A stretch of DNA of 64,000 nt. Source: Patescibacteria group bacterium UBA1406. GTDB taxonomy: Bacteria > Patescibacteriota > Microgenomatia > UBA1406. Numbering within the stretch: the first letter of the stretch is position 1; each line of letters starts with the position of its first letter. A model generated the notes under the pieces. The model was not told the origin of the DNA. It ran no database searches and worked only from the letters and a program-made list of their open reading frames with translations. A program made the position numbers and the translations under genes. Below, piece after piece: positions 46,670 through 64,000 of this stretch. The stretch covers positions 46,653 to 110,652 of the forward strand of contig DBQA01000007.1 of NCBI GenBank assembly GCA_002305675.1, read 5' to 3'.

Positions 46670-46811
46670 CGGTAACTGCTAGGCGTTTTCTGCCTTTCTG
46701 CATCCTTCTTTTCAAAACCTGCACCCCGTTTTTGGTGCTTTTCCTTTTTCTGTAGCCGTGGGTCCGGGCCCGCTTAACTTTGGAGGTTTTGTTTCCAAAA
46801 AATGAAACCAT
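46659..46811 (-). CDS. rpmH: ribosomal protein L34
   Basis: Not in the ORF track (50 aa). Hand translation gives [50 protein letters not shown], which matches the L34 pattern (R.HGFR.RM.TKNGR.VL.RRR.KGR..L). Confidence 0.88.
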
Positions 46812-46813
46812 GT

Positions 46814-48913: not shown

Positions 48914-48953
48914 TAATTATAGCAGACGGAGGGAAATGATAGGCGGGAATGCC

Positions 48954-49412
48954 CTATTTGTAATACTCTTTCACCTGGAAAAGGATATACAGGGACAATA
49001 GGCTGCCGATGACGAGGCCGGCTAGGCTCAGTGTTAGCAGGTTGCCGACAGCTCCGACAAGCGTTGCATAATACAGAAGGTACCATGCCTTCCGGCTCCT
49101 TTGGAAAAGTCCGGGGATGGCAATGAAGCCAAGGATAATGGACACGGCCGAGGTCAGGTAGTCAATAAAGAAGTTGAAACCGTACCTGATGCCTCCGAGA
49201 TAGCTGAACGGCATCATAAATGCTCCCAGGCCGAAAATCGCCAATAGTGCCGGAAGTGACAGGATGGAAAACACCAGCACCAGCCAGGGCGCCACCTTCA
49301 CCAGGGTTTCTTTCCATTCTTTGGGCAGGGGAGGAGCCTTGTCTACAAGGTACATCTTGAGGGTACTTTCCAGATTATGCAAGAGTGAACGGTAATCAGT
49401 AGTTTTGCTCAC
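48954..49412 (-). CDS. hypothetical four-TM membrane protein
   Basis: 152 aa, hydrophobic. I recognise no family. Confidence 0.5.
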   Translation of the reverse strand: MSKTTDYRSLLHNLESTLKMYLVDKAPPLPKEWKETLVKVAPWLVLVFSILSLPALLAIFGLGAFMMPFSYLGGIRYGFNFFIDYLTSAVSIILGFIAIPGLFQRSRKAWYLLYYATLVGAVGNLLTLSLAGLVIGSLLSLYILFQVKEYYK

Positions 49413-49440
49413 AATAACAAGATAGGAAAATCCGGGATTT

Positions 49441-49468
49441 TTGTCAAGCCCTATTTCCTTGTTATAAT
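49441..49468 (+). promoter_or_regulatory. promoter TTGTCA-16-TATAAT, 7 nt upstream of ATG 49476
   Basis: -35 at 49441-49446 and -10 at 49463-49468. Confidence 0.55.
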
Positions 49469-49475
49469 AGGAAAC

Positions 49476-51610: not shown

Positions 51611-51615
51611 GCATT

Positions 51616-51687
51616 GCCGAGGTAGCTCAGAGGCAGAGCAATCGTTTCATAAGCGATGGGTCGTGAGTTCGAATCTCACCCTCGGCA
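51616..51687 (+). tRNA. tRNA with anticodon CAT (elongator Met or lysidine-modified Ile2; not initiator-like)
   Basis: Hand-folded. Acceptor GCCGAGG/CCTCGGC, D stem GCTC/GAGC, anticodon stem ATCGT/GCGAT with loop TTCATAA, variable GGGTC, T arm GTGAG-TTCGAAT-CTCAC, discriminator A. CCA is not fully encoded. G1:C72 and the lack of 3 G-C pairs in the anticodon stem argue against an initiator. Confidence 0.9.
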
Positions 51688-52080
51688 CCTGGCCAGTACT
51701 TCTTTGGCGATCCGCTCCATTTCTTCTTTAGGAATATCTTTAATAGCACTGATGCGTATCCCGTCATCGTGTCCGTCGTTATCGAATCTGGGAACGATCC
51801 GGATATGGGCATGGGGAACCTCATAACCTAAAGTCAGAAAGTTGACTGAGTGCGACCCGACCACAGCCTGTGTTACCAAAGCGATCTTTTTGGCAGCCTC
51901 CCAATAATCGCCGAAGTTGGGCACATCATATACCCATCGATGGTGTTTCTTGGGGATCAGCAAGGAGTTGCCGGGATTCAGGGGCCTGATATCCAGAAAA
52001 CCCAAAAAATCACCGTCCTCATACACTTTGTAACTTGGGAGCTCGCCTCTGGAAATCTTGCAGAAAATACAGTCTTCCAT
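51676..52080 (-). CDS. HIT-family nucleotide hydrolase/transferase
   Basis: MEDCIFCKI... and the histidine triad HAHIRIVPR. The 3' end overlaps the tRNA 3' end by 12 nt on the opposite strand. Confidence 0.85.
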   Translation of the reverse strand: MEDCIFCKISRGELPSYKVYEDGDFLGFLDIRPLNPGNSLLIPKKHHRWVYDVPNFGDYWEAAKKIALVTQAVVGSHSVNFLTLGYEVPHAHIRIVPRFDNDGHDDGIRISAIKDIPKEEMERIAKEVLARCRG

Positions 52081-52104
52081 ACCCAAATCATAGCATAATC
52101 CGGC

Positions 52105-52935
52105 TCAGCCGAGAAGGATGTCGCACTCCCGCCTTACCCTGTCCGCCACCTGGGGTTTGAGACGGAGGATATCCCGGAGGCCGTTCCCATCCGCAAGTTC
52201 GCTTGCGAGGAGAATACCGTTCTCCACGAGAATCTGCTTTTCCCTCTGGCTTAAAGAATTCAAGGTGGTCACTGGATAAAGCTTCTTACTTTCCACCATA
52301 TCCTGAAGGTTCCCATTATCCGGATAGCTCCAACCTGTTAGCCTCATCTTGACGCACTCCGCATAGGTGATGGCATCGGAGGAGAATTTCGTGTTGCTGA
52401 ATATCCAGGCACCGAACTCCACGCCGGGGTCTGTCCGGCTTAACTTGTGGGCCAAGTCATCGCTCCTAGCCTTGACATAAAGAGGGATCTTGATGTCGCA
52501 CTTCAGGCCAATCTGGTTATGGTACTTACATTCCACGAAATAGACCCGCTTGTCCTTCCTCGCCAGGACATCCACCTCATGTGTCACACAGGCGCCCAAG
52601 AGTTCGGTGTTGGCCGCAACCGTATACCCGTGCTGTTTTAACAGCTCCGCCACGAACTTTTCAAACGGATAACCGGTGGGGCCTATCTCCATAATGGCCC
52701 GCTTCAGGGAGTACCTGTCCTTGCCCAAAGGATAGGCCTTGCCCAAAAAACCGCTGACCAGGCCGTATATTTCGGAGGTGGGAATATTCTGGTAGGCTCC
52801 TTTTTTGACATGGTTGACCACCTGCTCCTCATATTCCCGGGGTATTCCCGCCCTCTCCAGTGACGACCGGACCTTGTCCTCGTCGAACAGCTCTTTCTCA
52901 CCGCTTTCCTTGATTACCCAGATGTTTTGGGACAT
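52105..52935 (-). CDS. ATP-cone domain fused to an Mrr-like PD-(D/E)xK restriction-endonuclease-fold domain plus a C-terminal helical region
   Basis: ATP-cone: IWVIKESGEKELFDEDKVRSSLERAG...TSEIYGLVSGFL. Nuclease core: FEKFVAELLKQHGY...HEVDVLARKDKRVYFVECKYH. Confidence 0.75.
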   Translation of the reverse strand: MSQNIWVIKESGEKELFDEDKVRSSLERAGIPREYEEQVVNHVKKGAYQNIPTSEIYGLVSGFLGKAYPLGKDRYSLKRAIMEIGPTGYPFEKFVAELLKQHGYTVAANTELLGACVTHEVDVLARKDKRVYFVECKYHNQIGLKCDIKIPLYVKARSDDLAHKLSRTDPGVEFGAWIFSNTKFSSDAITYAECVKMRLTGWSYPDNGNLQDMVESKKLYPVTTLNSLSQREKQILVENGILLASELADGNGLRDILRLKPQVADRVRRECDILLG

Positions 52936-52970
52936 AAATAAATCGTAACAAAATTCATTTCATAAGTGAT

Positions 52971-53624
52971 TCAATAACATGGGGGTCCGGGCATCTTTCC
53001 CGTCGGAACCAGTTTGCCGCTTGCGTTCTGGCACCGGTTGGCCGGAACACCGCATTGTCCCGCACAGGTGGGATCGTCATAGAATATGCGGGGGCACTCG
53101 CTCATCTCGGGATTCTCAAATACCTCGCAGAAACCCGTTCTCCCGCCCCCGGGTGCGCAGACGTATTTCTTCGCACAGATGTCCAGCCCGATGTTGGGAC
53201 TCGCCACCCCGTAGTTATAACTGCAACCCGGCCCGCAGCCGGATGTGCAGTGGAGCTCTTCTATCACCGGATCAGCCAAAATCTCAAGATTCGTATAAAG
53301 CCTGTACCAGCTGCTCGCCTTGCCTGAGCAGGCCTCGTAATAGTAGTTGGTATTGGTGACCGGGTCGCAGGGCACCGACCCTAAAAGGATCTCGTTCCCT
53401 CCCCGGAAAGGTAGATTGCAATTAGGCAGAGCCGCGGGATAAGTAGAATTGTCCTGGTAATAATCTTCAAGCGCCCGGCTGAGCGCCTGGAAGTCGCTCT
53501 TGCGTTTGGCGTCCCTGGTTCTTTGCATCTGTTTCGGAATGAAGATAAACGAGAGCGGCAGAACCAATCCCAGGAGTACGATAATGATGATGATTTCGAC
53601 CAGCGTGAATCCTCTGTTGTGCAA
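52971..53624 (-). CDS. type IV pilin/pseudopilin-like protein with a 14-Cys C-terminal extension
   Basis: Class III signal MHNRG/FTLVEIIIIIVLLGL (G-1, F+1, E+5). TTG start 7 nt after AGGAGG. The C-terminal half holds 14 Cys (CTSGCGPGCS, CAKKYVCAPGG, CAGQCGVPANRC...). Confidence 0.85.
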   Translation of the reverse strand: MHNRGFTLVEIIIIIVLLGLVLPLSFIFIPKQMQRTRDAKRKSDFQALSRALEDYYQDNSTYPAALPNCNLPFRGGNEILLGSVPCDPVTNTNYYYEACSGKASSWYRLYTNLEILADPVIEELHCTSGCGPGCSYNYGVASPNIGLDICAKKYVCAPGGGRTGFCEVFENPEMSECPRIFYDDPTCAGQCGVPANRCQNASGKLVPTGKMPGPPCY

Positions 53625-53647
53625 ATACCCCTCCTAAACAAATAACG

Positions 53648-53992
53648 CTATCTGCCGAGTGTTGATAGAAAAAAGGTCACCAGAGACAAGATAATGCTGA
53701 AAACCAGGGCCGACAGGAAGGAGCCGACGGAAAAACCGGGCACCAGGGCACTAGCGAGCATGATAACCAGGGTATTGACCACCAGAGTGAACAGTCCGAG
53801 GGTGACTATGGTCAGCGGCAAGGTCAACAGTATCAACAGCGGTTTGACAAAAGTGTTCAGGAGACCAAGGACCACGGCCACCAGAACGGCGGTCCAAAAC
53901 GAATCGATGTCAACCCCTGGAACAACCGAAGCGGCTACCAGTACGGCCAGAGCATTCAAGACCAGACTGATAATTATTCTCATCAGTTTCAT
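53648..53992 (-). CDS. DUF360 / phage-holin-4_2-family membrane protein (YvlD-like)
   Basis: MKLMRIIISLVLNALAVLVAASVVPGVDIDSFWTAVLVAVVLGLLNTFVKPLLILLTLPLTIVTLGLF matches the family pattern. I prefer ATG 53992. Confidence 0.7.
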   Translation of the reverse strand: MKLMRIIISLVLNALAVLVAASVVPGVDIDSFWTAVLVAVVLGLLNTFVKPLLILLTLPLTIVTLGLFTLVVNTLVIMLASALVPGFSVGSFLSALVFSIILSLVTFFLSTLGR

Positions 53993-54031
53993 TGTAGCAA
54001 AAAGAGGTTCTGCCGCCAAGAGAAAGAGGAG

Positions 54032-54037
54032 TATAAT
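54032..54037 (+). promoter_or_regulatory. -10 box TATAAT 13 nt upstream of the radical SAM ATG
   Basis: The sequence reads ggagTATAATattatcaagcgccATG. Confidence 0.4.
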
Positions 54038-54050
54038 ATTATCAAGCGCC

Positions 54051-54977
54051 ATGAACCGCAAGCTGTATTTCAATATCACGAATTCATGCAACCTGGCTTG
54101 CCGATATTGCTACTACAACACGGGGCTCGAAAAAAGGATCTTCCACAAACTGGAACCGGATAAAATAATCAGGACCATACCCAAACTTAGGAAATTATTC
54201 GATGAGATCATCTTTACCGGCGGAGAGCCCCTTTTGTATCCGCAGGTTTTCGATATCGCCGCCGCCTGCAAAAGGAACGGTTTTGCCATTTCACTCCTCA
54301 CGAACGGAACGCTCTTGACGGAGAGGAACGTCGAAAAAATAATCAAGACCGGTTTTGATACCGTATCCGTTTCCATGGACTCGTTGTCCCCTGAGGTGAA
54401 CAATTACCAGCGGGGCAGAAGCGAACAGCTATATGCCGGACTACAAAACCTCATCCGGCAAAGGCCGCGAAAAATGACCCTGGAGATCATGCAGACCGTC
54501 AGCCGGAAAAACATCGATGACATCTTGTCCATCCTGAAATACGCCCAGAAGCACCGGCTCGTTCATTGGGTGGATCCTGTAGAAATTAATCCCGACCGGC
54601 CGGAGCTGAAAGAGTTCGATCTCTATGCCGCCTCGGAAAAGGAGCTCGCCAAACTGGAGCAGAACATGCTCAAATGGGCCGACGGTAATGAACTGCTTCT
54701 GAACTACGCCTACAACACGATCCGGTTGATAAAAAAGGAGCAACCGATCGGTCTTTTTTGCCCAATGGGAACGTATCATTTCGTGGTCGATGTGGACGGC
54801 GAAGTTTACCCCTGCTTCCTTCTGAAACAGATCAAACTCGGCAATCTGTGGGACGGCGATCCAGAGAAGATCTTCAAAGGCAATACCCATTACGCGACCA
54901 AGATGAGGCCAGTTTTGCAAAAAGCCGGCTGCGTCAGCCTGGGCTGCATCTGCATGACCCTGACCGGCAACTACTGA
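54051..54977 (+). CDS. radical SAM enzyme with a C-terminal SPASM/twitch-like Cys cluster (peptide/protein-modifying type)
   Basis: CNLACRYCYY (CxxxCxxC), GGEPLL, and the C-terminal CPMGTYHFVVDVDGEVYPCF...GCVSLGCICM. The track ORF 53694-54977 is over-extended across the antisense DUF360 gene. Confidence 0.8.
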   Translation: MNRKLYFNITNSCNLACRYCYYNTGLEKRIFHKLEPDKIIRTIPKLRKLFDEIIFTGGEPLLYPQVFDIAAACKRNGFAISLLTNGTLLTERNVEKIIKTGFDTVSVSMDSLSPEVNNYQRGRSEQLYAGLQNLIRQRPRKMTLEIMQTVSRKNIDDILSILKYAQKHRLVHWVDPVEINPDRPELKEFDLYAASEKELAKLEQNMLKWADGNELLLNYAYNTIRLIKKEQPIGLFCPMGTYHFVVDVDGEVYPCFLLKQIKLGNLWDGDPEKIFKGNTHYATKMRPVLQKAGCVSLGCICMTLTGNY

Positions 54978-54981
54978 CGCC

Positions 54982-55347
54982 TCAACCGATATACCTGTCC
55001 ACCATATCTTCCAGGGTATCAATATTGAAGGGTTTGGCCAGAAAGGCTTCCGCCTGGATGCGCTTGGAAACCTTTTCCACGTCCTTGCTCGCCGAGATGA
55101 TTATCAGGGGAATACCTTTCGTTTCCGAGTCGTTCTTCAGGCTCTGGGCAATCTCCTCTCCCCCCATCTTCGGCATCCAGAGATCGAGAAGGATCAGATC
55201 GGGCTTGACCTCTTTTGCCTTCAGATAAAGTCCGGCCCCATCAGAGTCAAGAATCACCACATAGCCCTTATCCTCCAAGACTATGCGGGTCACATCCAAT
55301 ATGCCTTTGTCATCATCGCATATCATAACTGTTTTAGTCGTCGACAT
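54982..55347 (-). CDS. stand-alone response-regulator receiver (CheY-like)
   Basis: VMICDDD..., phospho-acceptor LILLDLWMP, and the conserved K in LAKPF. No output domain and no kinase in the window. Confidence 0.8.
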   Translation of the reverse strand: MSTTKTVMICDDDKGILDVTRIVLEDKGYVVILDSDGAGLYLKAKEVKPDLILLDLWMPKMGGEEIAQSLKNDSETKGIPLIIISASKDVEKVSKRIQAEAFLAKPFNIDTLEDMVDRYIG

Positions 55348-55475
55348 GGCACAATAGACATTGCTAATAATCAAGCACTCCTCACCTCAACCTACTGAAG
55401 ACACACTCTTTACTTCATAGTAATAGCACCCTATGAGAATATTGTAAGATTTCATTTAGAAAACGATGAGGCTTT

Positions 55476-56618
55476 TCAGATAACCTTGAAGGTACCCCGG
55501 TACATCCCCATGCTGCAGGAAAAGTGGATGGTCCCTTCTTTCTCGGGCAGGAACTCCACCACGTTCTCCCCTCTTTGGATAACCTTCTGCACGTTCAGGG
55601 TGGGGACCACCAGGAAGTTTTGACAGCCGTAGACCACCTCGCCCTCTATTTCCCACCTGACGGGAATGCCCTTCTTAACGGTAAAGAAGTCCGGACTGTA
55701 ACCGTACCTGTCCACCTTCATCTTCACCACCTGGAAGCCGTCCCTGACTTCCGGCAGGCCGGCGGCCAACTTTTGGCTGGCCGGGAGATAATCCTGAATG
55801 CTAATGCCCCTGGTCACCAAAAAGTTGTTGGAATAACTAAGGCCCATGATGATCAACAGGATGCCGACGAACTTCTGGAAAACGACATAATACTTGGAGC
55901 TAGCGAAAGACGAGGTGAAGCCAATAAGCATCAGGACAGGCATCGTCCCCAGGGCAAAGACGGTCAGGACAATAGCACTTCTGACCGGATCGGCCAACCC
56001 GAAGGCATAGAGCTGTACCGCCTGGGTAAAACCGCAGGGCAAAAAATAGGTAATGCCACCCAGGAGAAAGGCGGTGTTTTTTGGTTTTTTGATGAGCATC
56101 CCTTCCAACCGCTCGAAAAGTCCTTTAGTGAAGGTGGGAACGGGAAAAGAGATGAGCTTGGCCATATCGAGACCGATAAGGAGCATCATTATGGCCACAG
56201 CGAGACTGACGAACTGGCCGAGTTGCAGGTCATAGGTGACCGTCCTTCCGGCATAACCCAGCACCAGTCCGAATACACCATACGATAGTATCCTGCCGAC
56301 GTTAAAGAACAGGGCCGGCATGACACTCCTGTCGTTCAATTTGCCGATGGTCGCCAGGAACAGGGAACCGGTGGTGGCCATACAGGTCGAGGTTGACGCT
56401 ACCACCCCGAGGCCAAAGGCTGCCAAAAAAGACATTTCGCCACTGATATTCAGTTCCGGCACCAGGTTGAAGCTTTTCACCAAAAAGTAGACCAGGAAAA
56501 TGACCAGTGCAAAAGCCATGGCTTCCAGGAAGCGGTTCATAAATGATTCACGGGTTACGTTACATGAAGAACAATACCCAGCCTTAACAAATAGCGCTGT
56601 TTTTTTGGTTTTTCCCAT
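55476..56618 (-). CDS. DsbD_2/TauE-like polytopic membrane domain fused to a C-terminal cupredoxin-like domain
   Basis: An N-terminal CSSC, TM-embedded Cys (TSTCMATTG, YFLPCGFTQA) and a C-terminal beta domain ending HFSCSMGMYRGTFKVI. Confidence 0.65.
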   Translation of the reverse strand: MGKTKKTALFVKAGYCSSCNVTRESFMNRFLEAMAFALVIFLVYFLVKSFNLVPELNISGEMSFLAAFGLGVVASTSTCMATTGSLFLATIGKLNDRSVMPALFFNVGRILSYGVFGLVLGYAGRTVTYDLQLGQFVSLAVAIMMLLIGLDMAKLISFPVPTFTKGLFERLEGMLIKKPKNTAFLLGGITYFLPCGFTQAVQLYAFGLADPVRSAIVLTVFALGTMPVLMLIGFTSSFASSKYYVVFQKFVGILLIIMGLSYSNNFLVTRGISIQDYLPASQKLAAGLPEVRDGFQVVKMKVDRYGYSPDFFTVKKGIPVRWEIEGEVVYGCQNFLVVPTLNVQKVIQRGENVVEFLPEKEGTIHFSCSMGMYRGTFKVI

Positions 56619-56658
56619 AAGTTAGGTGTTTTATATTTATATCCTAACTTAAGGGCAA
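56618..56658 (-). promoter_or_regulatory. candidate promoter (TTGCCC-17-TATAAA) bracketed by a perfect 9-bp inverted repeat (candidate operator)
   Basis: TAAGTTAGG (56618-56626) and CCTAACTTA (56643-56651) flank a 16-nt AT-rich spacer containing the -10. The proximal arm abuts ATG 56618. Confidence 0.4.
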
Positions 56659-56675
56659 ATTCAATCTTCCCCGTC

Positions 56676-58103
56676 TTAAACTCCGCAACCCCCACCTTGC
56701 CTGGGGACTTCTTTTTCATACCCGTTCTGGGATAACCAGTTCTTGATGTTCTGCCAACCCGTCACCGAGGAATAATCCCTGCCCAAAATGACCTTGCCGT
56801 CAATATCGGCAAAGTCTTTCCCGTCTTTGGCTTTGAAGTATATGGCGAGATCATAATAGTTAGAAGGGAACCAGTAAGCGTTGATAAATTTCGCCGCCTC
56901 ATACATCTCTTTTTCCGTTGCCCCGCTAGCAGCCATAAGCTCGAGAACCCCAAGAAGCGCCATGCCATGATTACAGTCAGGAAAAGAAGTTGGATTATTG
57001 CAGCAAGGACGATAGACATTGCCGCTCACCTCATCTACCAGTTGTTGCTGCTTTGGGGTCAGGGCAATCAGATCTCCGATAGCATAATAATCCATTACAT
57101 CATCTCCCCTGGTCAGGCTCCACCCACCGGTGGAAGCGAAATTGCCGACCTGGTCCTGACCGTATTTGGTTATTTCACCCTCTGTCAGGATTTTGTTTTT
57201 ATTCGCTAGACCAAATGCCCAGAAAAAATTTAAAAGGAAATATGAGTTTTCAGGGGTGATTTTTATCTTTTCTTGAGACCCCTCGGTCAGGATTTTAAGC
57301 TGTTCTTTACCCAACGGCTGTCCGGCGTTTTCATAAACATCCTGAAATTTCTCCAGATCAATAACCCCAAGTTCTACCATCTTCGGACCTAGATCCCCAT
57401 AACTGACATTGAGATCATAACCTTCTCGGGGATTGATTTGCAAAAATACAGAGTCTGCATCTATGTTTCCTGAAACTCCGCCGGCTACCAACGCCTGCTT
57501 TTGTCTAAAATCTACTTTCCAGTTATTCGGAAGTTTTGGCAACATATAGACAACTAGCACAAAGACAGCGACCACACCCACTGGTCTTAACTGCTCCAAG
57601 ACCCTTTTAGACTTGTCCTTACCCACCTTACAGGCCCCCGACAATGTCTTGGCATACTCATTGAGGGAATACAACAAAATCAGGGAAGACAGGAATTTTA
57701 CTTCCAGCCCTCCTAAAGGCAGAGCAGTTAGTGACGCAGCTACCCCTAGGGTAGGCAACAGAATAGCGCCGCAAACAGTACACCCTGTGGCAGCGACGGA
57801 ATATACCAGCGCTCCCAAGGTTTCCAAAATGGAACCATGTTTCTTTTTGTCTTTTTTCCTTTCTTCTAGAACGGCAATAAACATCGTTATCGCCACTCCG
57901 ATAAATACCGCATTAACCAAGCTTAAAAAGATCTGACTGTAGTTATAAAAGGGAATATTTGATTCCCAAAACGTGGACCAAGTAGCTGTTTGTAAAAGTA
58001 TAAAGTAATAAATGAGCATCACGCTCAGAGATACAGAAAAAGTTGTCACCCAAGCAGAGTAACTCCGGTAAACTTTTTTAAACACTTTGGTATAGGTATC
58101 CAT
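56676..58103 (-). CDS. hypothetical protein: N-terminal CxxC four-TM domain plus a ~290-aa exodomain with CCNNPTSFPDCNHG
   Basis: I prefer ATG 58103 (MDTYTKVF). TM motif ATGCTVCGAILLPTLG...LPLGGLE. C-terminal YRPCCNNPTSFPDCNHGMALLG and a terminal GGGCGV. Confidence 0.6.
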   Translation of the reverse strand: MDTYTKVFKKVYRSYSAWVTTFSVSLSVMLIYYFILLQTATWSTFWESNIPFYNYSQIFLSLVNAVFIGVAITMFIAVLEERKKDKKKHGSILETLGALVYSVAATGCTVCGAILLPTLGVAASLTALPLGGLEVKFLSSLILLYSLNEYAKTLSGACKVGKDKSKRVLEQLRPVGVVAVFVLVVYMLPKLPNNWKVDFRQKQALVAGGVSGNIDADSVFLQINPREGYDLNVSYGDLGPKMVELGVIDLEKFQDVYENAGQPLGKEQLKILTEGSQEKIKITPENSYFLLNFFWAFGLANKNKILTEGEITKYGQDQVGNFASTGGWSLTRGDDVMDYYAIGDLIALTPKQQQLVDEVSGNVYRPCCNNPTSFPDCNHGMALLGVLELMAASGATEKEMYEAAKFINAYWFPSNYYDLAIYFKAKDGKDFADIDGKVILGRDYSSVTGWQNIKNWLSQNGYEKEVPRQGGGCGV

Positions 58104-58137
58104 GAGTTGTTTTATATAACTATTAATAATGTGCCCC

Positions 58138-58551
58138 CTAGTTTTCAATAAAATTGATGATCTTATCTCTATCAAATTGTTCTAGAACAAGAATGTCCTG
58201 ATATTTGGTGAGGATGATTTTGCCATCGTAATCATTCGGAGCCAGATAGACATAATCATACTGTTTAACAAGCTCCTCTAACCTCGTAATCAAGTCTCTT
58301 TCACACCCAAAATCCTGACAGTTATATTGAATAACTACTCCAGGCCTGCCCATGCCGTCGGCATGCTCAAGCATATGTTTCTGGATGGGTTCAGACATCG
58401 GGTCATATAGGATATGGCTTCTGGGAGAAAGTTCTACATGGCCTTTAAGATCCGTAGGAGGAAGTCTGCGTCTCCCTGATCTATCGTTTAAGAACCACAC
58501 CAGTCCTCCGAAAAAAATCAGCGTAGCTAGTAAATAAAAAGTTGTTTTCAT
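58138..58551 (-). CDS. N-terminally anchored protein, DUF3105-like (HxxEH and CxxxxC motifs)
   Basis: KHMLEHADGMGRPGVVIQYNCQDFGCE resembles my recollection of DUF3105. The ATG at 58551 shares one base with the upstream TGA. Confidence 0.45.
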   Translation of the reverse strand: MKTTFYLLATLIFFGGLVWFLNDRSGRRRLPPTDLKGHVELSPRSHILYDPMSEPIQKHMLEHADGMGRPGVVIQYNCQDFGCERDLITRLEELVKQYDYVYLAPNDYDGKIILTKYQDILVLEQFDRDKIINFIEN

Positions 58552-59150
58552 CAAACTCTTTTATCAACTAAAACTTTCATCGTATTGTATTGTTTAACTC
58601 TGAAGCTGTCAACCTTGGTATTGTATTTTTTAATACAATTGCCCGTGACTCCCTCTGCCAGCCGCCATAGGGAGAAAATTATCAATAATATCCCGGCAAG
58701 TCCGAATTCCATGCCTGCTAAAGGGAGCCTGGCAGTCAGCCAAAGTGCAGTTCCGGCTGGAAGCAGACTGCCAAGTATAAAAGAACCGCAACTCAGGCAA
58801 GATAGGCCGATGAAACCGCTGAAAGTACCGACTAATCCATTGGCAGAGGCATTCCGTAGATAGACCACAAAACTCAGATAGATACCGAAAAAAAATGCCA
58901 TGACTATCGCCAGTACTGCCTTTAAAAAAGTAAAATTAGTAGCGAAACCCTTCAGAAGCCCAACTATTAATCTAAGCTTCAAATCCCAGGCTATACCCTG
59001 ACGGCTCAGAACCTGAACAATGAGAGAGACATTTGGCAACCAGATAATTAGAGCAAAGAAGGCAGCCGCGACTACCATTGTTAGAATAAAATAGGACTTT
59101 CTGCCGTATACCAGAAGCAGTGAACTGTAAAAAACGTGCCAATATTTCAT
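58551..59150 (-). CDS. hypothetical CxxC four-TM membrane protein, paralogous to the N-domain of 56676-58103
   Basis: LSCLSCGSFILGSLLPAG...RLPLAGMEFGLAGILLIIFSL...GNC aligns with the corresponding segment of the 475-aa protein. Confidence 0.6.
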   Translation of the reverse strand: MKYWHVFYSSLLLVYGRKSYFILTMVVAAAFFALIIWLPNVSLIVQVLSRQGIAWDLKLRLIVGLLKGFATNFTFLKAVLAIVMAFFFGIYLSFVVYLRNASANGLVGTFSGFIGLSCLSCGSFILGSLLPAGTALWLTARLPLAGMEFGLAGILLIIFSLWRLAEGVTGNCIKKYNTKVDSFRVKQYNTMKVLVDKRV

Positions 59151-59893
59151 TTCTCTTTTTGTAAACTAAGTTCTATCAAATCCCGGAAAACTTCATAGGG
59201 CTGAGCGCCTGATAAACTATACGGTTCCTGTCCCTCTGTTAAAAAGACAAAGTGCGGGGTGCCCTTCGCACCGGCCAGCATTCCGTCAACGTAATCCTGA
59301 CTAATACGGCGGTTATACCGATCGCTATCCAGACATTCCTGGAAAGCGGGGACGAACAAACCCGTTTCTTCAGCAATTACCGCCAGGAGCGACAGATCCA
59401 GGCCGTCACTAGATTTTGTCAACTCGAATAGTCTGTCGGCATATTTCCAAAAAGCTTCATGTCCACCAATTTCGGCCGCACACTCCGAAGCCCTAGCTTC
59501 TTGTCTGGCATTCTTATGTCTGTCTATCGGGAAGTGCCGATATATCCAGGCGGCCTTGCCGCTCGGTCCATATTCTTCAATAATTTTCTTCATCGTCGGG
59601 TGGACCTTTTTGCAAAAGGGGCATTCAAAATCCGAGTATTCAATGATTTTTACCTTCGCATCTTTATTCCCCCGGATATGGTCATTGATATCCACCGGCC
59701 GGATATACTGGACCTCGTTTACAACCTGAGTTTTGGGTATACTGATACCGACTTCGGAAACATCGGCTTCATTGCTAGGAAGCGCTTGGGTAACAGGTTC
59801 TTTTTTGGCTGTTGGCACTTTGTCTAGCTCCTTAAGCAACAGACCGGCTCCAACAAAGATCAACACCAACAATAATTTCTTTATAAGACTCAT
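59147..59893 (-). CDS. DsbA-like thiol:disulfide oxidoreductase (membrane-anchored)
   Basis: IIEYSDFECPFCKKVHP (CPFC active site) with an N-terminal TM. I prefer ATG 59893. Confidence 0.85.
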   Translation of the reverse strand: MSLIKKLLLVLIFVGAGLLLKELDKVPTAKKEPVTQALPSNEADVSEVGISIPKTQVVNEVQYIRPVDINDHIRGNKDAKVKIIEYSDFECPFCKKVHPTMKKIIEEYGPSGKAAWIYRHFPIDRHKNARQEARASECAAEIGGHEAFWKYADRLFELTKSSDGLDLSLLAVIAEETGLFVPAFQECLDSDRYNRRISQDYVDGMLAGAKGTPHFVFLTEGQEPYSLSGAQPYEVFRDLIELSLQKEK

Positions 59894-59894
59894 A

Positions 59895-60326
59895 TTATCC
59901 AATTATTAAATCAGCCCTCATGCCCCGGTTGCGATGGTCGAGCACTTTGCAAATAATTCTATATCTGCCTTTTTTCGGCTGGTTCAAATTGACCAAGGCA
60001 AATCCGCCCGGTTCTACCTGGCCTGTGTCTATGCCTAGGTCTTCGATTACCATACTGTGCGGTTCCCTCCCTCTGTTTGTGAACACCAGGAAGACATTTT
60101 TTCCCTCCTGAATACTAGTCTCCTTCGGCAGAAGATAATATTCTGTAGCTGTGATCTTGAACTGATTCGGCTGTTTTCGGTCCTGTTTTTTTTGTCCAGC
60201 GGTCTTTTTCTCAACAACCGGCACGTCTCTATCCGCAGACAAAAACCCACTGTCAGATATTAAAACCACTCCCAAAATTATGAAAAGAGCAAAAAACAGC
60301 CTTTTCAGCCATAAGCCTTTGTTCAT
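59895..60326 (-). CDS. membrane-anchored cupredoxin with a complete type-1 copper ligand set
   Basis: An N-terminal TM, His in REPHSMVI, and C-x4-H-x4-M in IICKVLDHRNRGM. Confidence 0.7.
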   Translation of the reverse strand: MNKGLWLKRLFFALFIILGVVLISDSGFLSADRDVPVVEKKTAGQKKQDRKQPNQFKITATEYYLLPKETSIQEGKNVFLVFTNRGREPHSMVIEDLGIDTGQVEPGGFALVNLNQPKKGRYRIICKVLDHRNRGMRADLIIG

Positions 60327-60341
60327 GTATATACAAGATAA

Positions 60342-60599
60342 TTACTTTCTTTTGCTTAATAACTCCAAACTCCATCCGAAAACATAACCAACAACCCAGG
60401 ATACTATCGCAAACAGCACGCCGCCAAGCACTACGTTATAAAAACTCAAGCTCTGATGCCCAACGTTACCGAGCGCAAACAGTTCTGCTCCGGCCCGGTA
60501 AAGCCCAGGCAATAAAATGGCAATCATCGTGCAAGCAATCCACAGGATAGCTCCCGTCAAAGCAAAAGCGTTGGCCAGTAACTCTTTGGTAAGCTTCAT
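60342..60599 (-). CDS. hypothetical small three-TM protein
   Basis: 85 aa, hydrophobic, with an ATGA overlap with the upstream gene. Confidence 0.5.
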   Translation of the reverse strand: MKLTKELLANAFALTGAILWIACTMIAILLPGLYRAGAELFALGNVGHQSLSFYNVVLGGVLFAIVSWVVGYVFGWSLELLSKRK

Positions 60600-61081
60600 T
60601 TTTTCTCACCTCCTTCCTCCGATAGAGCGATTGCTGATAGTCTTGTAACCTGTTTAACAAGATAGTGAATACCAAAAATATTACTTATGATGCCAATTAC
60701 TATAAACCAAACCTGATATTCCGCCAAAATTACCAAAGCCCCGGAAATGCCGATTATGGGCAAGATATCCGCTAAATGATGGGCACAGCACATCACCATA
60801 CTGGTCGCCGAAACACCCATATTCGCCGTAGTAATTTTTCCGGCAGAGCCCAATATCCGGCTCTGCCTATACAAGTAGCTCGCCAAACCCACCTGTATCC
60901 CAAAACCCAGATCAAGAACCAAAATCCAGAGCCAAATATTTTTGAACTGGGTAAAGGCATAATCCCAAGAGCCGCCGCCGAGGCGTAAAACCAAAAAATA
61001 GAAGGCCATCAATCCTGTAGCGCCCAGGAAAGCATCCAAAAACTCAACCGGGCTAACAACAACCTCCTTCTTTTTATTCAT
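60596..61081 (-). CDS. hypothetical four-TM protein with an intramembrane CCAHH motif
   Basis: SATSMVMCCAHHLADILPIIG lies within a predicted helix. 161 aa. Confidence 0.55.
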   Translation of the reverse strand: MNKKKEVVVSPVEFLDAFLGATGLMAFYFLVLRLGGGSWDYAFTQFKNIWLWILVLDLGFGIQVGLASYLYRQSRILGSAGKITTANMGVSATSMVMCCAHHLADILPIIGISGALVILAEYQVWFIVIGIISNIFGIHYLVKQVTRLSAIALSEEGGEKK

Positions 61082-62513
61082 TTTCTGGATCGATTAATAT
61101 CTGCCTCTTTTCGATCCCGGCAATATTTTCACCCACCAGATAAAACGGTTGGCCTGGATTTTGAAAAGTCATTTCCGCTGACAGATGGTGACCTTCTCCT
61201 TCTGTTTTTACCTCCCGAGCATAATATCTCCTGTCTCTCTGTTGTAGATATATATCCCTCCCAAAATCCACGCTCGACAGATTAGCATTATGGGTATCCA
61301 AATAGACTTTGAGGATAAGGGTTTTTGTTCTTAAGCTGGATACACTTTCTATCGCCATTGTCACTCCGCCCTCTCCAGTATCGCTCTTGGTAAAATACGG
61401 GACCCCGTCAGAAACAGTTTCCACCATCTCGACCACGTCATTTGCTACCGACCTTTTTTCCTGGCCGCTTTCAAGCACAAACCAGGCCAACGAGGTGACA
61501 ACCAACATCAAAGCCAATATTCGGATATAGTTTGCCTTACTCGTATTTGGGTTATGTTTTTCCTTTGGGTCATGATCGTTTTTGAAGGTTTTCAGACAAT
61601 GATCGGAGCAAAAATAATAGGTGCTACCATCCACCTCTTTTTTGTATCTGGCGGTAGCGATGTCAATTTTCATTTTACAGACAGGATCGACAGCAAGATG
61701 GGCTTTCTTTTTCCGTAAAAGCACAAAAGAGAGATATATAATCAGGGCAAAAAAAGAAATGTCCAAGAGGGGATTCTGGAAATATTTGGAAACGTTAAAG
61801 ATAACCGTTCTTAAGGCAGTATCAAGCGAGGAGGTATCACCCATCATAACGATTTTACCCTGATAGTTCAAAACGGCAATGGTGAGTCCGCTCACCACAA
61901 AAATGAAAGCTCCTATTATCTTGAATATGTCGTATATTTTTTTCCTGGCCTGGCCGATGACTTTTTGGGATATCCTGTCATAGAACAAAGACATCAGGAA
62001 CAAGGGAAAGACTATTCCCAAAACATAAGCGAAAGCGACGAATATCGCCTGGAACATGGACGGGGACAAAGAAGTTAGCGTTATTGCCGCGAACAAAACC
62101 GGGGCGCAACAAGAGGAAGTCAGACCGGATATAACCCCCAGCCCGTAGATGGACAAGGCATCCACCTTGCCACCCGCATTTCTGCTGAAGGTGAGAGAAA
62201 AGGGCATCTTGACTTCCAAAAGAGTCATAACTCCTATCAACACCAATACGAGCGCTCCCAGATAATAGAAAAAGCCGTGGTAAAGATCAAAGAAAGAAAC
62301 AATGAATTTGAATCCCAGGGCCACAGGCACCAGGATTGTCGCCAACCCGAGCGAAAAGATCAGCGTGTATAAAAACACCTTCTCGGTTTTTTTGAAAATG
62401 GTCCCAAGGTATGCCGGCAATAAAAAAGTGATGCAGCAGGGAGCGAACAGTGCCAATACTCCTGCTAGAAAAGAACCTGTCAGTGATATACCGAACAAAA
62501 AATTATTGTCCAT
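61074..62513 (-). CDS. CcdA/DsbD-like membrane thiol-transfer domain fused to a YHS (TRASH-type) metal-binding domain and a C-terminal anchored beta domain
   Basis: FAPCCITFLLPAYLG and TSSCCAPVLF in TMs. YHS: DPVCKMKIDIATARYKKEVDGSTYYFCSDHCLKTF. The C-terminal domain contains EGEGHHLSAEMTF. Confidence 0.7.
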   Translation of the reverse strand: MDNNFLFGISLTGSFLAGVLALFAPCCITFLLPAYLGTIFKKTEKVFLYTLIFSLGLATILVPVALGFKFIVSFFDLYHGFFYYLGALVLVLIGVMTLLEVKMPFSLTFSRNAGGKVDALSIYGLGVISGLTSSCCAPVLFAAITLTSLSPSMFQAIFVAFAYVLGIVFPLFLMSLFYDRISQKVIGQARKKIYDIFKIIGAFIFVVSGLTIAVLNYQGKIVMMGDTSSLDTALRTVIFNVSKYFQNPLLDISFFALIIYLSFVLLRKKKAHLAVDPVCKMKIDIATARYKKEVDGSTYYFCSDHCLKTFKNDHDPKEKHNPNTSKANYIRILALMLVVTSLAWFVLESGQEKRSVANDVVEMVETVSDGVPYFTKSDTGEGGVTMAIESVSSLRTKTLILKVYLDTHNANLSSVDFGRDIYLQQRDRRYYAREVKTEGEGHHLSAEMTFQNPGQPFYLVGENIAGIEKRQILIDPENE

Positions 62514-63013
62514 TATTCAACGAAGGCCGTTACCCCAAAGTACATCTCCGGATTTTCCGGATCGTTGGTCCTGATAACCACCGCCCGTTCTACCTGTCCC
62601 TGCACAGGCATAAGCGCTGGCTTATAGATAACATATAGCTTGGCCTTTTCCTTGGGATTAAGGGTCAGTATGTAGTTGGAGTTGGAATGCATGCTGAACC
62701 GACCTGACTTCTGACCTCTGTACTCAAGCTGGCCAAAAGTACAGCCGCAGGTGGAGGATATGCCAAAAATATTCAGGGGTTTTTCACCTTTGTTTTCTAT
62801 CATAAAAGTCTCGGTTTTGGTATCCGAAACCTTCATTCTTCCCATATCTTTGCTGTTGCTATTAAAGGCAAGCCTGGGCCTTTCTTTGTCCGTCAGTTTG
62901 TAAAGGGTAGCTTTGGTCTCGGGCTTCTGTGTCTGTGACAGGTAATAAACACCATAGGTTACTCCCAAAAATAATATAATCAGACCCAGAACCCACCAGA
63001 CTGTTTTGTTCAT
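62513..63013 (-). CDS. DUF1573-domain protein (membrane-anchored)
   Basis: An N-terminal TM and the hallmark ISSTCGCTFG inside an Ig-like beta domain. Confidence 0.7.
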   Translation of the reverse strand: MNKTVWWVLGLIILFLGVTYGVYYLSQTQKPETKATLYKLTDKERPRLAFNSNSKDMGRMKVSDTKTETFMIENKGEKPLNIFGISSTCGCTFGQLEYRGQKSGRFSMHSNSNYILTLNPKEKAKLYVIYKPALMPVQGQVERAVVIRTNDPENPEMYFGVTAFVE

Positions 63014-63015
63014 GT

Positions 63016-64000
63016 TTAAGATTTAACTTCTAAATTAACTTTTTTCAATGTCAAGGCGTTGATGACCACGATTACCGACGACAGACTCATCAAAATCGCC
63101 CCCCACTCCGGTTTCAAAAAGAAACCGAGTGGAGCAAAGGCTCCAGCGGCAGCAGGTATGGCCATCACGTTGTATCCGGTAGCCCAGATCAAATTCTCCA
63201 CCATTTTCCGGTAAACGGCTCGACTGAGCTTGATTAGCCTGGCAATGTCCTCAGGATTGTTCCTGGTCAGGACTATGTCACCGGCCTCCACCGCCACTTC
63301 TGTGCCAGCCCCCACTGCCACACCGGCATCAGCCTGGGTTAGGGCCGGAGCATCGTTGATACCGTCGCCGACCATCATCACCTGATTGCCTTCGTCTTGG
63401 AGAGTTTTTATATGTTTGTATTTGTCCTCGGGTAATACTTCCGCAAAATAGGTGTCAATGTCAAGCTCGTCAGCTACGGTTTTGGCTACAGCTTCGTTAT
63501 CGCCCGTCAACATCGCTACCTTAACTCCCAGGGAGTGCAATTTTCTCACAGCTGCATAAGACTCTTCTTTAACTACGTCGGAGAGAGCCAGAAGACCAAT
63601 CGCCTCTTTTTGATCTGCGAGGAAGACTGTTGTTTTACCCTTGCCAGACAGCTCTTCATACTTAGTTTCAGCCGCCCGGCTTAATAATTTTCGCTCCTTC
63701 ATCAACCCCCTGTTGCCTATAAGGTATTTTTGGGAGTCAATCATACCTTCAATTCCTTTACCGGCAATATTTTTAAACTTTGTTGTCTCCGTCATCTTGA
63801 GACCGTCTTTTTTTGCTTTTTCAACAATAGATTGGCCAATAACATGTGAAGAATGAGTCTCCAAACTGGCAGCTGTCCTCAGTATGTCGGCCGGTTTAGT
63901 CTTACCCAAAGGAACCACTTCGCTGACCCCAAACTTTCCTTTAGTCAAGGTGCCTGTCTTGTCAAAAACGACATAATCGACTTTTTTAACCACCTCAAGT
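63016..64000 (-). CDS. copA: P1B-1-type Cu(I)-translocating P-type ATPase, C-terminal part (gene runs off window end)
   Basis: DKTGTLT, GDGINDAPAL, TM7 YNVMAIP (YN-x4-P) and TM8 MSLSS (M-x2-SS), the Cu(I) subgroup signature. The frame is open to base 64000. Confidence 0.85.
   Translation of the reverse strand, partial: LEVVKKVDYVVFDKTGTLTKGKFGVSEVVPLGKTKPADILRTAASLETHSSHVIGQSIVEKAKKDGLKMTETTKFKNIAGKGIEGMIDSQKYLIGNRGLMKERKLLSRAAETKYEELSGKGKTTVFLADQKEAIGLLALSDVVKEESYAAVRKLHSLGVKVAMLTGDNEAVAKTVADELDIDTYFAEVLPEDKYKHIKTLQDEGNQVMMVGDGINDAPALTQADAGVAVGAGTEVAVEAGDIVLTRNNPEDIARLIKLSRAVYRKMVENLIWATGYNVMAIPAAAGAFAPLGFFLKPEWGAILMSLSSVIVVINALTLKKVNLEVKS

What the first reader, a model, noticed from the sequence alone, without database searches (positions are those of the whole stretch)
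56676..59150. Two adjacent genes share a paralogous four-TM domain with an intramembrane CxxCG ... LPLxGxE ... C signature
By eye, the 199-aa protein (GFIGLSCLSCGSFILGSLLPAGTALWLTARLPLAGMEFGLAGILLIIFSLWRLAEGVTGNC) aligns with aa ~110-175 of the 475-aa protein (YSVAATGCTVCGAILLPTLGVAASLTALPLGGLEVKFLSSLILLYSLNEYAKTLSGAC). Both share the same preceding two-TM layout and a basic loop. I do not recognise this domain as a named family. The duplication, with one copy standalone and one fused to an exodomain, suggests a heteromeric or modular redox or metal-binding membrane unit.
Basis: seen in the sequence. Interest (0 to 1): 0.55.

Follow-up and report, generated by a model that had tools for sequence, protein, structure and literature searches.

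The report
New membrane CxxC partner of DsbA
Two genes in this window carry the same unnamed four-helix membrane domain with buried cysteines; across Patescibacteria this domain is almost always encoded right after a DsbA-type disulfide enzyme inside copper-resistance islands, so it is probably a new kind of membrane redox partner for DsbA.

Summary
The 199-aa protein (58551-59150, minus strand) and the N-terminal ~160 residues of the 475-aa protein (56676-58103, minus strand) are homologous. Pairwise BLASTP is marginal (E 0.001). Profile comparison gives E 3.5e-15. An HMM built only from standalone proteins scores all 120 fused proteins at 39-69 bits, against 3.6 bits or less for reversed or shuffled controls.

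CxxC is invariant in both families and PxxGxE almost invariant. The third Cys is kept in 97% of standalone and about 88% of fused proteins. Neither family matches Pfam, NCBIfam, PDB sequences or PDB folds.

The standalone family has at least 1365 clusters at 50% identity, and named sources are Patescibacteria. In about 68 of 80 genomic loci its gene lies 0-10 nt downstream of a DsbA-like gene, usually with a CPFC active site. About 70% of fully flanked loci also carry copper or heavy-metal genes. Rhodococcus plasmid metal islands pair a homologous DsbA-like gene with VKOR in the same way.

Best reading, at 0.45: a non-homologous DsbB/VKOR analogue that recycles DsbA. The rivals are a reductive conduit and a thiophilic-metal relay. 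The two paralogues belong to separate cassettes, so a heteromer is not supported.

The parts
58551..59150 (-). 199-aa standalone four-helix CxxC membrane protein (P0001)
   Evidence: ORF. Member of a family with at least 1365 representatives at 50% identity. AF2 model has pLDDT 84.5 and predicts four long helices plus short helices at 123-141.
58785..58799 (-). CLSCG: the invariant CxxC (C118, C121) and G122, within the third hydrophobic helix
   Evidence: C118 and C121 are present in 150/150 representatives and G122 in 149/150.
58707..58727 (-). LPLAGME: the L-P-x-x-G-x-E motif at the outer start of helix 4
   Evidence: P143 149/150, G146 148/150, E148 148/150.
58635..58637 (-). Third conserved Cys (C172), after the basic KK-I stretch. 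It is cytoplasmic by the positive-inside rule.
   Evidence: Present in 145/150. Pro at position -3 in 108/145. Median of 4 residues remain to the C-terminus in the family.
56676..58103 (-). 475-aa protein: four-helix CxxC domain, a fifth TM helix and a 260-aa extracytoplasmic domain. The public call P0004 starts at 58148; the longest ORF starts at 58175.
57624..58103 (-). Paralogous four-helix domain of the 475-aa protein (residues 1-160). CTVCG at 57768-57782, LPLGGLE at 57702-57722, third Cys at 57630-57632.
57528..57596 (-). Fifth transmembrane helix, which places the C-terminal domain outside the cell
   Evidence: One search gives the sequence. predicts a helix at 164-190. A basic loop (KVGKDKSKR) precedes it.
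56679..57461 (-). Exodomain (residues 215-475). Invariant RPCCxNxTxFPDCNHG at 56964-57008 and the C-terminal GGGCGV tail at 56679-56696.
   Evidence: In metagenomes the same domain mostly occurs as a single-anchor protein of 310-340 aa.
59147..59902 (-). DsbA-like thioredoxin-fold protein with an N-terminal membrane anchor. CPFC active site at 59612-59623 and GTP cis-Pro loop at residue 214. Its stop overlaps the start of the 199-aa gene by 4 nt.
   Evidence: Thioredoxin_4 1.6e-22, DSBA 1e-15.. The same gene pair is seen in about 68 of 80 loci.
58138..58554 (-). 138-aa DUF3105-like protein (HMLEH and NCxDFxC motifs). It overlaps the stop of the 199-aa gene by 4 nt.
   Evidence: One search gives a weak match (E 3e-4). 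One search aligns it with clear DUF3105 proteins. A DUF3105 gene lies directly downstream of the family gene in 22 of 80 loci.
59895..63993 (-). Upstream part of the island: cupredoxin (59895-60326), DUF5676 (60342-60599), CCAHH membrane protein (60596-61081), CcdA/DsbD-like membrane protein with a YHS domain (61074-62513), DUF1573 with a CGC motif (62513-63013), and a P-type ATPase cut by the window end (63016-63993).
   Evidence: The DUF1573 - CcdA-like - exodomain gene order recurs.
55476..56618 (-). DsbD_2 membrane domain fused to a cupredoxin-like domain, directly downstream of the 475-aa gene
   Evidence: DsbD_2 2.9e-31, Cupredoxin_1 1.1e-6. The order is syntenic in L164.

Best explanation
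The shared domain defines an uncharacterised, Patescibacteria-centred family of small membrane proteins. Each has four TM helices and an invariant CxxC inside helix 3. An invariant Glu sits at the outer start of helix 4, a conserved Asn lies in helix 2, and a conserved Cys lies at the cytoplasmic C-terminal end.

I propose that it is the membrane thiol:disulfide partner of extracytoplasmic cysteine proteins. In its standalone form it would recycle the membrane-anchored DsbA-like CPFC protein encoded immediately upstream. Most likely it takes electrons from reduced DsbA and so re-oxidises it, which makes it a non-homologous functional analogue of DsbB, VKOR or MauE. In the 475-aa form the same engine is fused in cis to a Cys-rich exodomain (PCC...C-x-H plus a flexible C-terminal GGGCGV tail), much as VKOR is fused to its thioredoxin partner in some bacteria.

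The module belongs to copper or heavy-metal stress islands. There, control of extracytoplasmic thiols matters, because copper mis-oxidises and binds cysteines.

Shown here:
- homology of the two copies;
- the conservation pattern;
- absence from the known-family libraries searched;
- gene pairing with DsbA;
- the copper-island context;
- the VKOR-paired homologue in actinobacterial plasmid islands.

Inferred:
- membrane topology;
- direct thiol exchange with DsbA;
- direction of electron flow;
- the electron acceptor, which is unknown.
For: 1. In 80 GTDB loci carrying the standalone family, a DsbA-like gene lies directly upstream on the same strand in about 68. In the 65 pairs measured, the gap is mostly 2-10 nt or an overlap. 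The active site is CPFC in 57 of 65. The window shows the same 4-nt overlap.
2. The window's DsbA aligns over its full length with oxidase-type DsbAs in PDB: 4pwp/4pwo annotated DsbA, Wolbachia 3f4r, BdbD 3eu3. Matches to the copper-resistance or ScsC-type entries (6mhh, 6nen, 4xvw, 4gxz) are weaker and cover only the active-site region.
3. In Rhodococcus plasmid metal islands that carry DUF3105-DUF305 and CopC, a thioredoxin-domain gene overlaps a VKOR gene. pBD2 additionally has TlpA and CcdA there. A third Rhodococcus island has BlaI/CopY, M56, TlpA and CcdA but no VKOR pair in the stretch shown. The pBD2 thioredoxin-domain protein is 30% identical to the window's DsbA (E 3e-19). VKOR is unrelated to the four-helix family (hhalign probability 1.4%). 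This looks like non-orthologous displacement.
4. The islands separately carry CcdA/DsbD-like genes, paired with DUF1573 in the exodomain-gene loci and present in 12 of the 80 standalone-family loci. A reductive module is therefore already available in them.
5. Architecture: four helices; CxxC followed by a helix break; a 37-residue external loop with predicted amphipathic helices.
6. The same domain is fused to two different Cys-rich exodomains.
7. No VKOR homologue was found in 1.42 Mb of these loci plus the window.
8. The field states that DsbB-like enzymes remain undiscovered (bioRxiv 10.64898/2026.03.05.709764).
Against: - There is no second extracytoplasmic Cys pair such as DsbB and VKOR use; the Cys frequency in loop 1 is 0.
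- The third conserved Cys is cytoplasmic by the positive-inside rule. An outward-facing oxidase has no obvious use for it.
- Patescibacteria generally lack quinone synthesis and respiratory chains (general knowledge), so the usual electron acceptor is missing.
- The module sits in accessory copper islands rather than core genome: 26 of 37 fully flanked loci have a P-type ATPase, multicopper oxidase or CsoR. That context also fits a Scs-like reductive or metal-handling role.
- Some Saccharibacteria have VKOR as a core gene (PMC9040727), so the phylum is not uniformly without a known oxidase.
- About 12 of 80 loci have the gene without any DsbA nearby.
- Foldseek found no resemblance to DsbB or VKOR.
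- The AF2 confidence is only 64-71 around the CxxC.
Confidence: 0.45

Rival explanations
1. Reductive conduit (analogue of Scs, or of CcdA/DsbD). The membrane CxxC receives electrons from the cytoplasm, possibly through the cytoplasmic Cys and thioredoxin. It then keeps the DsbA-like protein, or the fused exodomain, reduced. That protein can then isomerise or reduce copper-induced wrong disulfides, or hold Cu(I).
For: - The module lies in copper islands with a P1B-type ATPase (42 of 80 loci), multicopper oxidase (16), CsoR (11) and BlaI/CopY plus M56 (18-20).
- This matches the logic of the Salmonella, Proteus and Caulobacter Scs systems. Their DsbA-like ScsC proteins do match the window's DsbA, though weakly.
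- A conserved Cys sits on the cytoplasmic side, and the CxxC lies near the middle of a 25-residue hydrophobic stretch. Together they suggest a path across the membrane.
- Second and third DsbA paralogues occur in the same loci.
Against: - The partner DsbA is closer to oxidase-type DsbAs than to ScsC.
- CcdA/DsbD-like genes are already present in the islands.
- A single cytoplasmic Cys is an unusual relay. It is lost in about 12% of the fused family while CxxC and Glu stay invariant.
- The positional equivalent in Rhodococcus plasmid islands is VKOR, an oxidase.
- No thioredoxin or thioredoxin reductase gene is consistently nearby.
Confidence: 0.2
2. Thiophilic-metal relay or transporter built like MerT, MerC or MerF. 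An extracytoplasmic CxxC protein (here the DsbA-like protein or the exodomain) hands Cu(I), or Hg(II) or Cd(II), to the intramembrane CxxC/Glu/Asn site. The metal then passes to the cytoplasmic Cys, or travels the reverse way from the P-type ATPase to external acceptors.
For: - The layout has a Cys pair in the first helix of a hairpin plus a cytoplasmic Cys after the second helix. From memory, this is the layout of Mer transporters, and MerC also carries a GCAAC-type motif in a TM helix; that is a lead, not a test.
- There are conserved polar residues inside helices (N91 in 114/150, E148 in 148/150).
- The genes are embedded in metal islands.
- Neighbouring membrane proteins are fused to metal-binding domains such as YHS and cupredoxin.
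- The exodomain's CC-x8-C-x-H and C-terminal Cys tail look like a metal site with a swinging arm.
Against: - No Pfam match to MerC, MerT or MerF at permissive thresholds. One of 54 members gave a MerE hit at E 0.039.
- No MerA or MerP appears among the recurrent neighbour families of the 80 loci.
- Importing copper makes little sense in a resistance island.
- The tightly coupled partner is a DsbA-fold protein, not a known metallochaperone fold.
Confidence: 0.2
3. One reading: the two paralogues in this window form one heteromeric membrane unit.
For: They lie in one minus-strand gene string with overlapping or short-gapped genes.
Against: - The two families are within 6 kb of each other in only about 7 of 80 standalone-family loci. 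Only 1 of 80 exodomain-gene loci has a standalone copy nearby.
- Sister strain L164, which is 99.2% identical in the flanking DNA, has the fused gene but no standalone gene.
Confidence: 0.04

Closest known systems
DsbB / VKOR (and BdbC, DsbI): membrane enzymes that re-oxidise DsbA
   Same: - A small four-helix membrane protein.
- A CxxC in or near the membrane.
- The gene is translationally coupled to a DsbA-family gene.
- It occupies the position that VKOR holds in Rhodococcus plasmid metal islands, next to a homologous DsbA-like gene.
- It also occurs fused to an extracytoplasmic Cys domain, as VKOR can be.
   Different: - No sequence or fold similarity.
- CxxC is in helix 3, not helix 2 (DsbB) or helix 4 (VKOR).
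- No second external Cys pair.
- A conserved cytoplasmic Cys and an invariant membrane Glu.
- The host phylum mostly lacks quinones.
MauE (recently proposed DsbB substitute with a CXC site; bioRxiv 10.64898/2026.03.05.709764)
   Same: It is another non-DsbB, non-VKOR membrane protein proposed to drive DsbA-type oxidation with a single Cys motif and no loop Cys pair.
   Different: Its motif is CXC rather than CxxC. No Pfam MauE or DoxX match was found. MauE is modelled with ubiquinone.
CcdA / DsbD / ScsB reductive electron conduits, and the Scs copper-tolerance system
   Same: - Cysteines inside TM helices.
- The partner is a thioredoxin-fold protein outside the cell.
- A copper-stress context like scsABCD.
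   Different: - Four helices rather than six to eight.
- One CxxC rather than one Cys in each of two symmetry-related helices.
- No DsbD_TM or DsbD_2 match.
- True DsbD-like genes are present separately in the same islands.
MerT / MerC / MerF mercury transporters
   Same: A Cys pair in a TM helix plus cytoplasmic Cys after the next helix, in a metal-resistance locus. This comparison rests on memory of those families.
   Different: No detectable homology. No MerP, MerA or MerR nearby. The partner has a DsbA fold.

Membership tests
DsbB (PF02600) / VKOR (PF07884) | Sequence or profile similarity to the family | tested here: not met
   No Pfam or NCBIfam hit for the window proteins, for 54 members, or at E up to 10 for four members. 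hhalign of A5 against a Rhodococcus VKOR gives probability 1.4%. The profile finds nothing among PDB sequences.
DsbB / VKOR | Four-helix-bundle fold resembling solved DsbB or VKOR structures | tested here: not met
   Foldseek of the AF2 model (pLDDT 84.5) against PDB gives no match at E of 0.001 or better. No DsbB or VKOR appears among the 29 weak hits. Helical membrane bundles are hard for Foldseek, so this negative is soft.
DsbB / VKOR | Two redox Cys pairs on the extracytoplasmic side: a CxxC plus a loop pair that contacts DsbA | tested here: not met
   Only CxxC and one C-terminal Cys are conserved. Cys frequency is 0 throughout external loop 1. 105 of 150 proteins have exactly 3 Cys.
DsbB / VKOR | Genetic coupling to a DsbA-family partner | tested here: met
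   A DsbA-like gene lies directly upstream in about 68 of 80 loci, mostly with a 2-10 nt gap. The active site is CPFC in 57 of 65.
DsbB / VKOR | Quinone-dependent re-oxidation of DsbA | not testable with these tools
   This needs biochemistry or genetic complementation.
CcdA / DsbD_TM / DsbD_2 | Profile similarity, and six or more helices with one Cys in each of two related helices | tested here: not met
   No PF02683 or PF13386 hit, whereas the neighbouring 380-aa protein hits DsbD_2 at 2.9e-31. Four helices and one CxxC.
MauE / DoxX | Profile similarity and a CXC active site | tested here: not met
   No Pfam hit. The motif is CxxC.
MerC / MerT / MerF / MerE | Profile similarity and a mer operon context (MerR, MerP, MerA) | tested here: not met
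   The only hit is MerE at E 0.039 in 1 of 54 members. No MerA- or MerP-like cluster appears among the recurrent neighbours.
New family defined here (four-helix CxxC / PxxGxE) | G-x-G-C-x-x-C in helix 3, L-P-x-x-G-x-E at the start of helix 4, and two preceding helices with a basic loop | tested here: met
   Both window proteins carry all of these features. The HMM score for P0004 is 59.8 bits.

The most novel reading that the evidence does not exclude
This would be a further, structurally unrelated class of DsbA-recycling membrane enzyme, evolved in bacteria that lack quinones. It would pass the electrons of oxidative protein folding to an unconventional acceptor. Candidates are the copper or cupredoxin proteins of the same island, or a cytoplasmic acceptor reached across the membrane through the conserved cytoplasmic Cys.
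Probability: 0.2. Interest if true: 0.9.

Novelty: new variant of a known kind. Interest (0 to 1): 0.68.

Why it matters
How bacteria without DsbB or VKOR recycle DsbA has been open since the comparative surveys of 2008. The 2026 MauE preprint still reports that about 20% of species have no known enzyme for it. Patescibacteria are a huge, mostly uncultured radiation. From general knowledge, they have minimal redox metabolism yet rely on surface proteins and pili.

A large, unnamed membrane family is hard-wired to DsbA in these genomes and travels with copper-resistance genes. It is a concrete candidate that can be cloned. Standard E. coli dsbB, dsbD and copper-sensitivity assays can test it.

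Whatever the direction of electron or metal flow, three things are new here: an unannotated domain, a second unannotated exodomain, and a conserved gene cassette.

Tried and rejected
- **Library searches.** Pfam, NCBIfam, PDB-sequence and Foldseek-PDB searches of both proteins, both family profiles and both AF2 models all came back empty.
- **Split-fusion idea.** I tested whether the DUF3105-like gene between the paralogues is related to the 475-aa exodomain, which would mean a split version of the fusion. hhalign gives probability 0.5%, so this is rejected.
- **Second fused exodomain.** I tested whether the other fused exodomain (L015, L033) is homologous to the 475-aa exodomain. There is only a 29-column local match around 'YY..L(S/T)PEQ..PCC' at probability 6.8%, which is not significant.
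- **Swap with CcdA-like domains.** I tested whether the four-helix domain replaces CcdA-like domains as the exodomain's partner. It does not, because fused forms also have a CcdA-like gene upstream.
- **VKOR fusions.** I checked whether the 375-401-aa DsbA paralogues in the loci are DsbA-VKOR fusions. They are not; the extra part is soluble and has no Pfam match.
- **Source genome.** Looking up the window's own contig through P0001 and P0004 failed.
- **Alignment A3.** The search for related loci rejected A3 as too diverse, so I used the narrower A4.
- **Literature.** Searches for Patescibacteria with DsbA, or with DsbB/VKOR, found no description of this family. DUF3105 is essentially unstudied.
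- **Organism labels.** By my count, about 23 of the 80 GTDB loci carry titles such as 'uncultured Gammaproteobacteria' from one series of third-party MAGs. I could not verify those labels. All other named sources are Patescibacteria.
Full report
**What is in the window.** Positions 55476-63993 hold one string of minus-strand genes with short gaps or overlaps. In order of transcription they are:
- a P-type ATPase, cut by the window end;
- DUF1573;
- a 479-aa CcdA/DsbD-like membrane protein with a YHS domain;
- a 161-aa membrane protein with a CCAHH motif;
- DUF5676;
- a cupredoxin;
- a DsbA-like protein (59147-59902);
- the 199-aa protein (58551-59150);
- a 138-aa DUF3105-like protein (58138-58554);
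- the 475-aa protein (56676-58103);
- a DsbD_2-cupredoxin fusion (55476-56618).

GC content falls from about 0.52 to 0.43-0.46 over 56-64 kb. The two genes of the finding are therefore separated by one gene, not strictly adjacent.

**Is the similarity real?** Pairwise BLASTP is only marginal: 26% identity over 110 aa, E 0.001. The families settle the question.
- The 475-aa protein has more than 3000 relatives. Those that carry a name are hypothetical proteins of Patescibacteria.
- The 199-aa protein had three relatives by word search. An exhaustive HMM search found 1365 cluster representatives at E of 0.001 or better, and 713 at 1e-10 or better. Nearly all of the 150 best hits listed are standalone proteins of 170-200 aa.
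- Profile-profile comparison of the two families gives probability 98.5%, E 3.5e-15, over 152 columns. That span includes the first two helices.
- An HMM built only from standalone proteins scores all 120 fused proteins at 39-69 bits. Reversed or shuffled controls stay at 3.6 bits or below.

**Is the signature conserved?**
- Standalone family: CxxC 150/150, G122 149, P143 149, G146 148, E148 148, third Cys 145/150. Asn91 inside helix 2 is kept in 114/150. The motifs IWLPN and TNFT border the external loop.
- Fused family: CxxC 120/120, PxxGxE in all 118 proteins scored, third Cys about 106/120. The residue after CxxC is Ser in 75/120.

Only the trailing Gly and the third Cys are less than universal.

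**Topology (inferred).**
- The N-terminus carries on average 3.4 Lys+Arg and the C-terminal segment 3.3.
- The loop between helices 2 and 3 carries conserved Lys/Arg (position 100 is K or R in 59% of sequences). Most family members have a longer, more basic insert there than the window protein (alignment blocks).
- The 37-residue loop 1 and the loop between helices 3 and 4 are poor in net positive charge.
- This gives N-in and C-in.
- The CxxC lies within a 25-residue uncharged stretch. AF2 places it at a helix break: helices 106-121 and 123-129, with pLDDT 64-71 in that region.
- Glu148 starts helix 4 on the outer side.
- The third Cys follows KK-I-x-x-P-x-x on the cytoplasmic side. The median member has only 4 residues after it.
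- In the 475-aa protein a basic loop and a fifth helix put the exodomain outside.

**Known families.**
- Neither protein, none of 54 family members and neither exodomain matches Pfam or NCBIfam.
- Profiles of both families find nothing among PDB sequences.
- Foldseek of both AF2 models (pLDDT 81 and 84.5) finds nothing at E of 0.001 or better.
- Where a source gives a name, it is 'hypothetical protein' or 'uncharacterized membrane protein'.

**Genomic context of the standalone family.** I examined 80 loci from species-representative genomes (240 confirmed hits for one peptide pattern).
- A DsbA-like gene lies immediately upstream on the same strand in about 68 of them. In the 65 pairs measured, the gap is mostly 2-10 nt, and the active site is CPFC in 57 of 65.
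- De novo clustering of neighbours, followed by Pfam naming, gives these counts per 80 loci:

| Neighbour family | Loci (of 80) |
|---|---|
| P-type ATPase with a CPC motif | 42 |
| DUF3105, directly downstream (median +3 nt) | 22 |
| M56/BlaR1-like | 20 |
| BlaI/CopY | 18 |
| Multicopper oxidase | 16 |
| CcdA-like | 12 |
| CsoR | 11 |
| YtkA-like | 10 |

- Of the 37 loci with full 6-kb flanks, 26 contain an ATPase, a multicopper oxidase or CsoR.
- About 12 loci have the gene without DsbA, in unrelated surroundings.

**Context of the exodomain.**
- In 80 metagenome loci, the 260-aa exodomain is fused to the four-helix domain in 14. In about 65 it is a single-anchor protein of 310-340 aa.
- In both forms its gene typically follows DUF1573 and a CcdA-like gene of about 275 aa.
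- A different Cys-rich exodomain is fused to the four-helix domain in L015 and L033.

**The two copies are not one unit.**
- They co-occur in fewer than 10% of loci.
- A sister strain (L164) is 99.2% identical to window 46676-57437 and 90.8% identical to 61705-62973. It is only 66.5% identical over the four-helix part of the 475-aa gene, and it has nothing matching about 58081-61705.
- Its gene order is CsoR, cupredoxin, ATPase, DUF1573, CcdA-like, fused gene, DsbD_2-cupredoxin.
- The window strain therefore acquired a ~4.3-kb low-GC replacement. That segment brought the DsbA - four-helix - DUF3105 cassette and a new N-terminal domain for the fused gene.

**Mechanism.** The strongest single fact is the hard-wired pairing with DsbA. 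Several points bear on the direction of electron flow.
- The window's DsbA aligns over its full length with oxidase-type DsbAs in PDB (the entries annotated DsbA, Wolbachia 3f4r, BdbD). It matches the ScsC-type copper-resistance entries only around the active site.
- In Rhodococcus plasmids, metal islands carrying DUF3105-DUF305 and CopC contain a thioredoxin-domain gene that overlaps a VKOR gene. pBD2 also carries TlpA and CcdA there.
- A further Rhodococcus island has BlaI/CopY, M56, TlpA and CcdA but shows no VKOR pair in the stretch examined.
- The pBD2 thioredoxin-domain protein is 30% identical to the window's DsbA (E 3e-19).
- VKOR itself is unrelated to the four-helix family.
- No VKOR homologue occurs in the 1.42 Mb of Patescibacteria loci I held.

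This looks like non-orthologous displacement of VKOR. The CcdA-like and DUF1573 genes would then play the reductive role that CcdA and TlpA play in the actinobacterial islands. I therefore favour a DsbB/VKOR-type role, at confidence 0.45.

Several things count against it:
- there is no external Cys pair;
- the cytoplasmic Cys is conserved;
- the phylum generally lacks quinones (general knowledge);
- the copper-island setting fits other roles equally well;
- oral Saccharibacteria have VKOR (PMC9040727).

The rivals are a Scs-like reductive conduit (0.2) and a Mer-like thiophilic-metal relay (0.2). The existing evidence cannot exclude either.

**Novelty.** The kind of system, a DsbA with a membrane Cys partner, is known. 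The membrane component, its fused exodomain and the cassette are not described in any library or paper I could search. The 2026 MauE preprint states that more oxidative-folding pathways remain to be found. I rate this a new variant of a known kind, with interest 0.68.

Noticed in passing
window 57437-61705, compared with L164 9966-10670: A ~4.3-kb low-GC segment is replaced relative to a sister strain that is 99.2% identical downstream of it; upstream the match is 90.8% (61705-62973). One breakpoint lies inside the 475-aa gene, between its fifth helix and the exodomain. As a result the gene's four-helix part is only 66.5% identical at the DNA level, while the exodomain is about 99% identical.
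   Followed up: yes
window 60596-61081 (minus strand): A 161-aa multi-helix membrane protein carries the motif MVMCCAHHLADILP. It belongs to a recurring family with no Pfam match. By phmmer it appears in 13 of the 80 standalone-family loci, and it also occurs in several exodomain-gene loci.
   Followed up: partly
window 58138-58554 (minus strand); L079 6489-7094: DUF3105 is essentially unstudied. It has conserved PPTSGxH and HxLEHG motifs. It lies directly downstream of the four-helix gene in 22 of 80 loci, and next to DUF305 and CopC in actinobacterial plasmid islands. A haloarchaeal plasmid has a 441-aa form beside merA and merB. It is probably a metal-binding protein.
   Followed up: partly
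window 62513-63013 and 61074-62513 (minus strand); L096-L115: A conserved three-gene order recurs: DUF1573 (Ig-like, CGC motif, related to a selenoprotein family in NCBIfam), then a CcdA-like membrane protein (here extended by a YHS domain), then the PCC...CNHG exodomain protein. This looks like a separate extracytoplasmic thiol or metal relay.
   Followed up: partly
L025 7009-8136; L044 6563-7768: A second DsbA type has a CE[AV]C active site and a ~150-aa soluble C-terminal extension ending CPERGxPPTENCVGGLGxxC. It lies 0-500 nt downstream of the DsbA - four-helix pair in several loci. The Rhodococcus VKOR partner also has CEAC.
   Followed up: partly
L061 2691-3104 and 10 other loci: An unknown 137-aa membrane protein family carries the motif CPLMSYNPSMCPMGALEHM. 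It recurs in 11 of 80 islands and has no Pfam match.
   Followed up: no
window 52971-53624 (minus strand): A type IV pilin-like protein (FTLVEI N-terminus) has 14 cysteines in its mature part. It is a plausible client for extracytoplasmic disulfide formation. It is syntenic in L164, so it is not part of the island.
   Followed up: no
L015 5165-6316; L033 6004-7149; protein P0135: The four-helix domain has other fusions. One is a fifth helix plus a ~170-aa exodomain with the motifs CCSPMNxH, GPCCCKCWRW and a C-terminal DGCGG. One protein has a cytoplasmic SAM-methyltransferase domain after the third Cys.
   Followed up: partly
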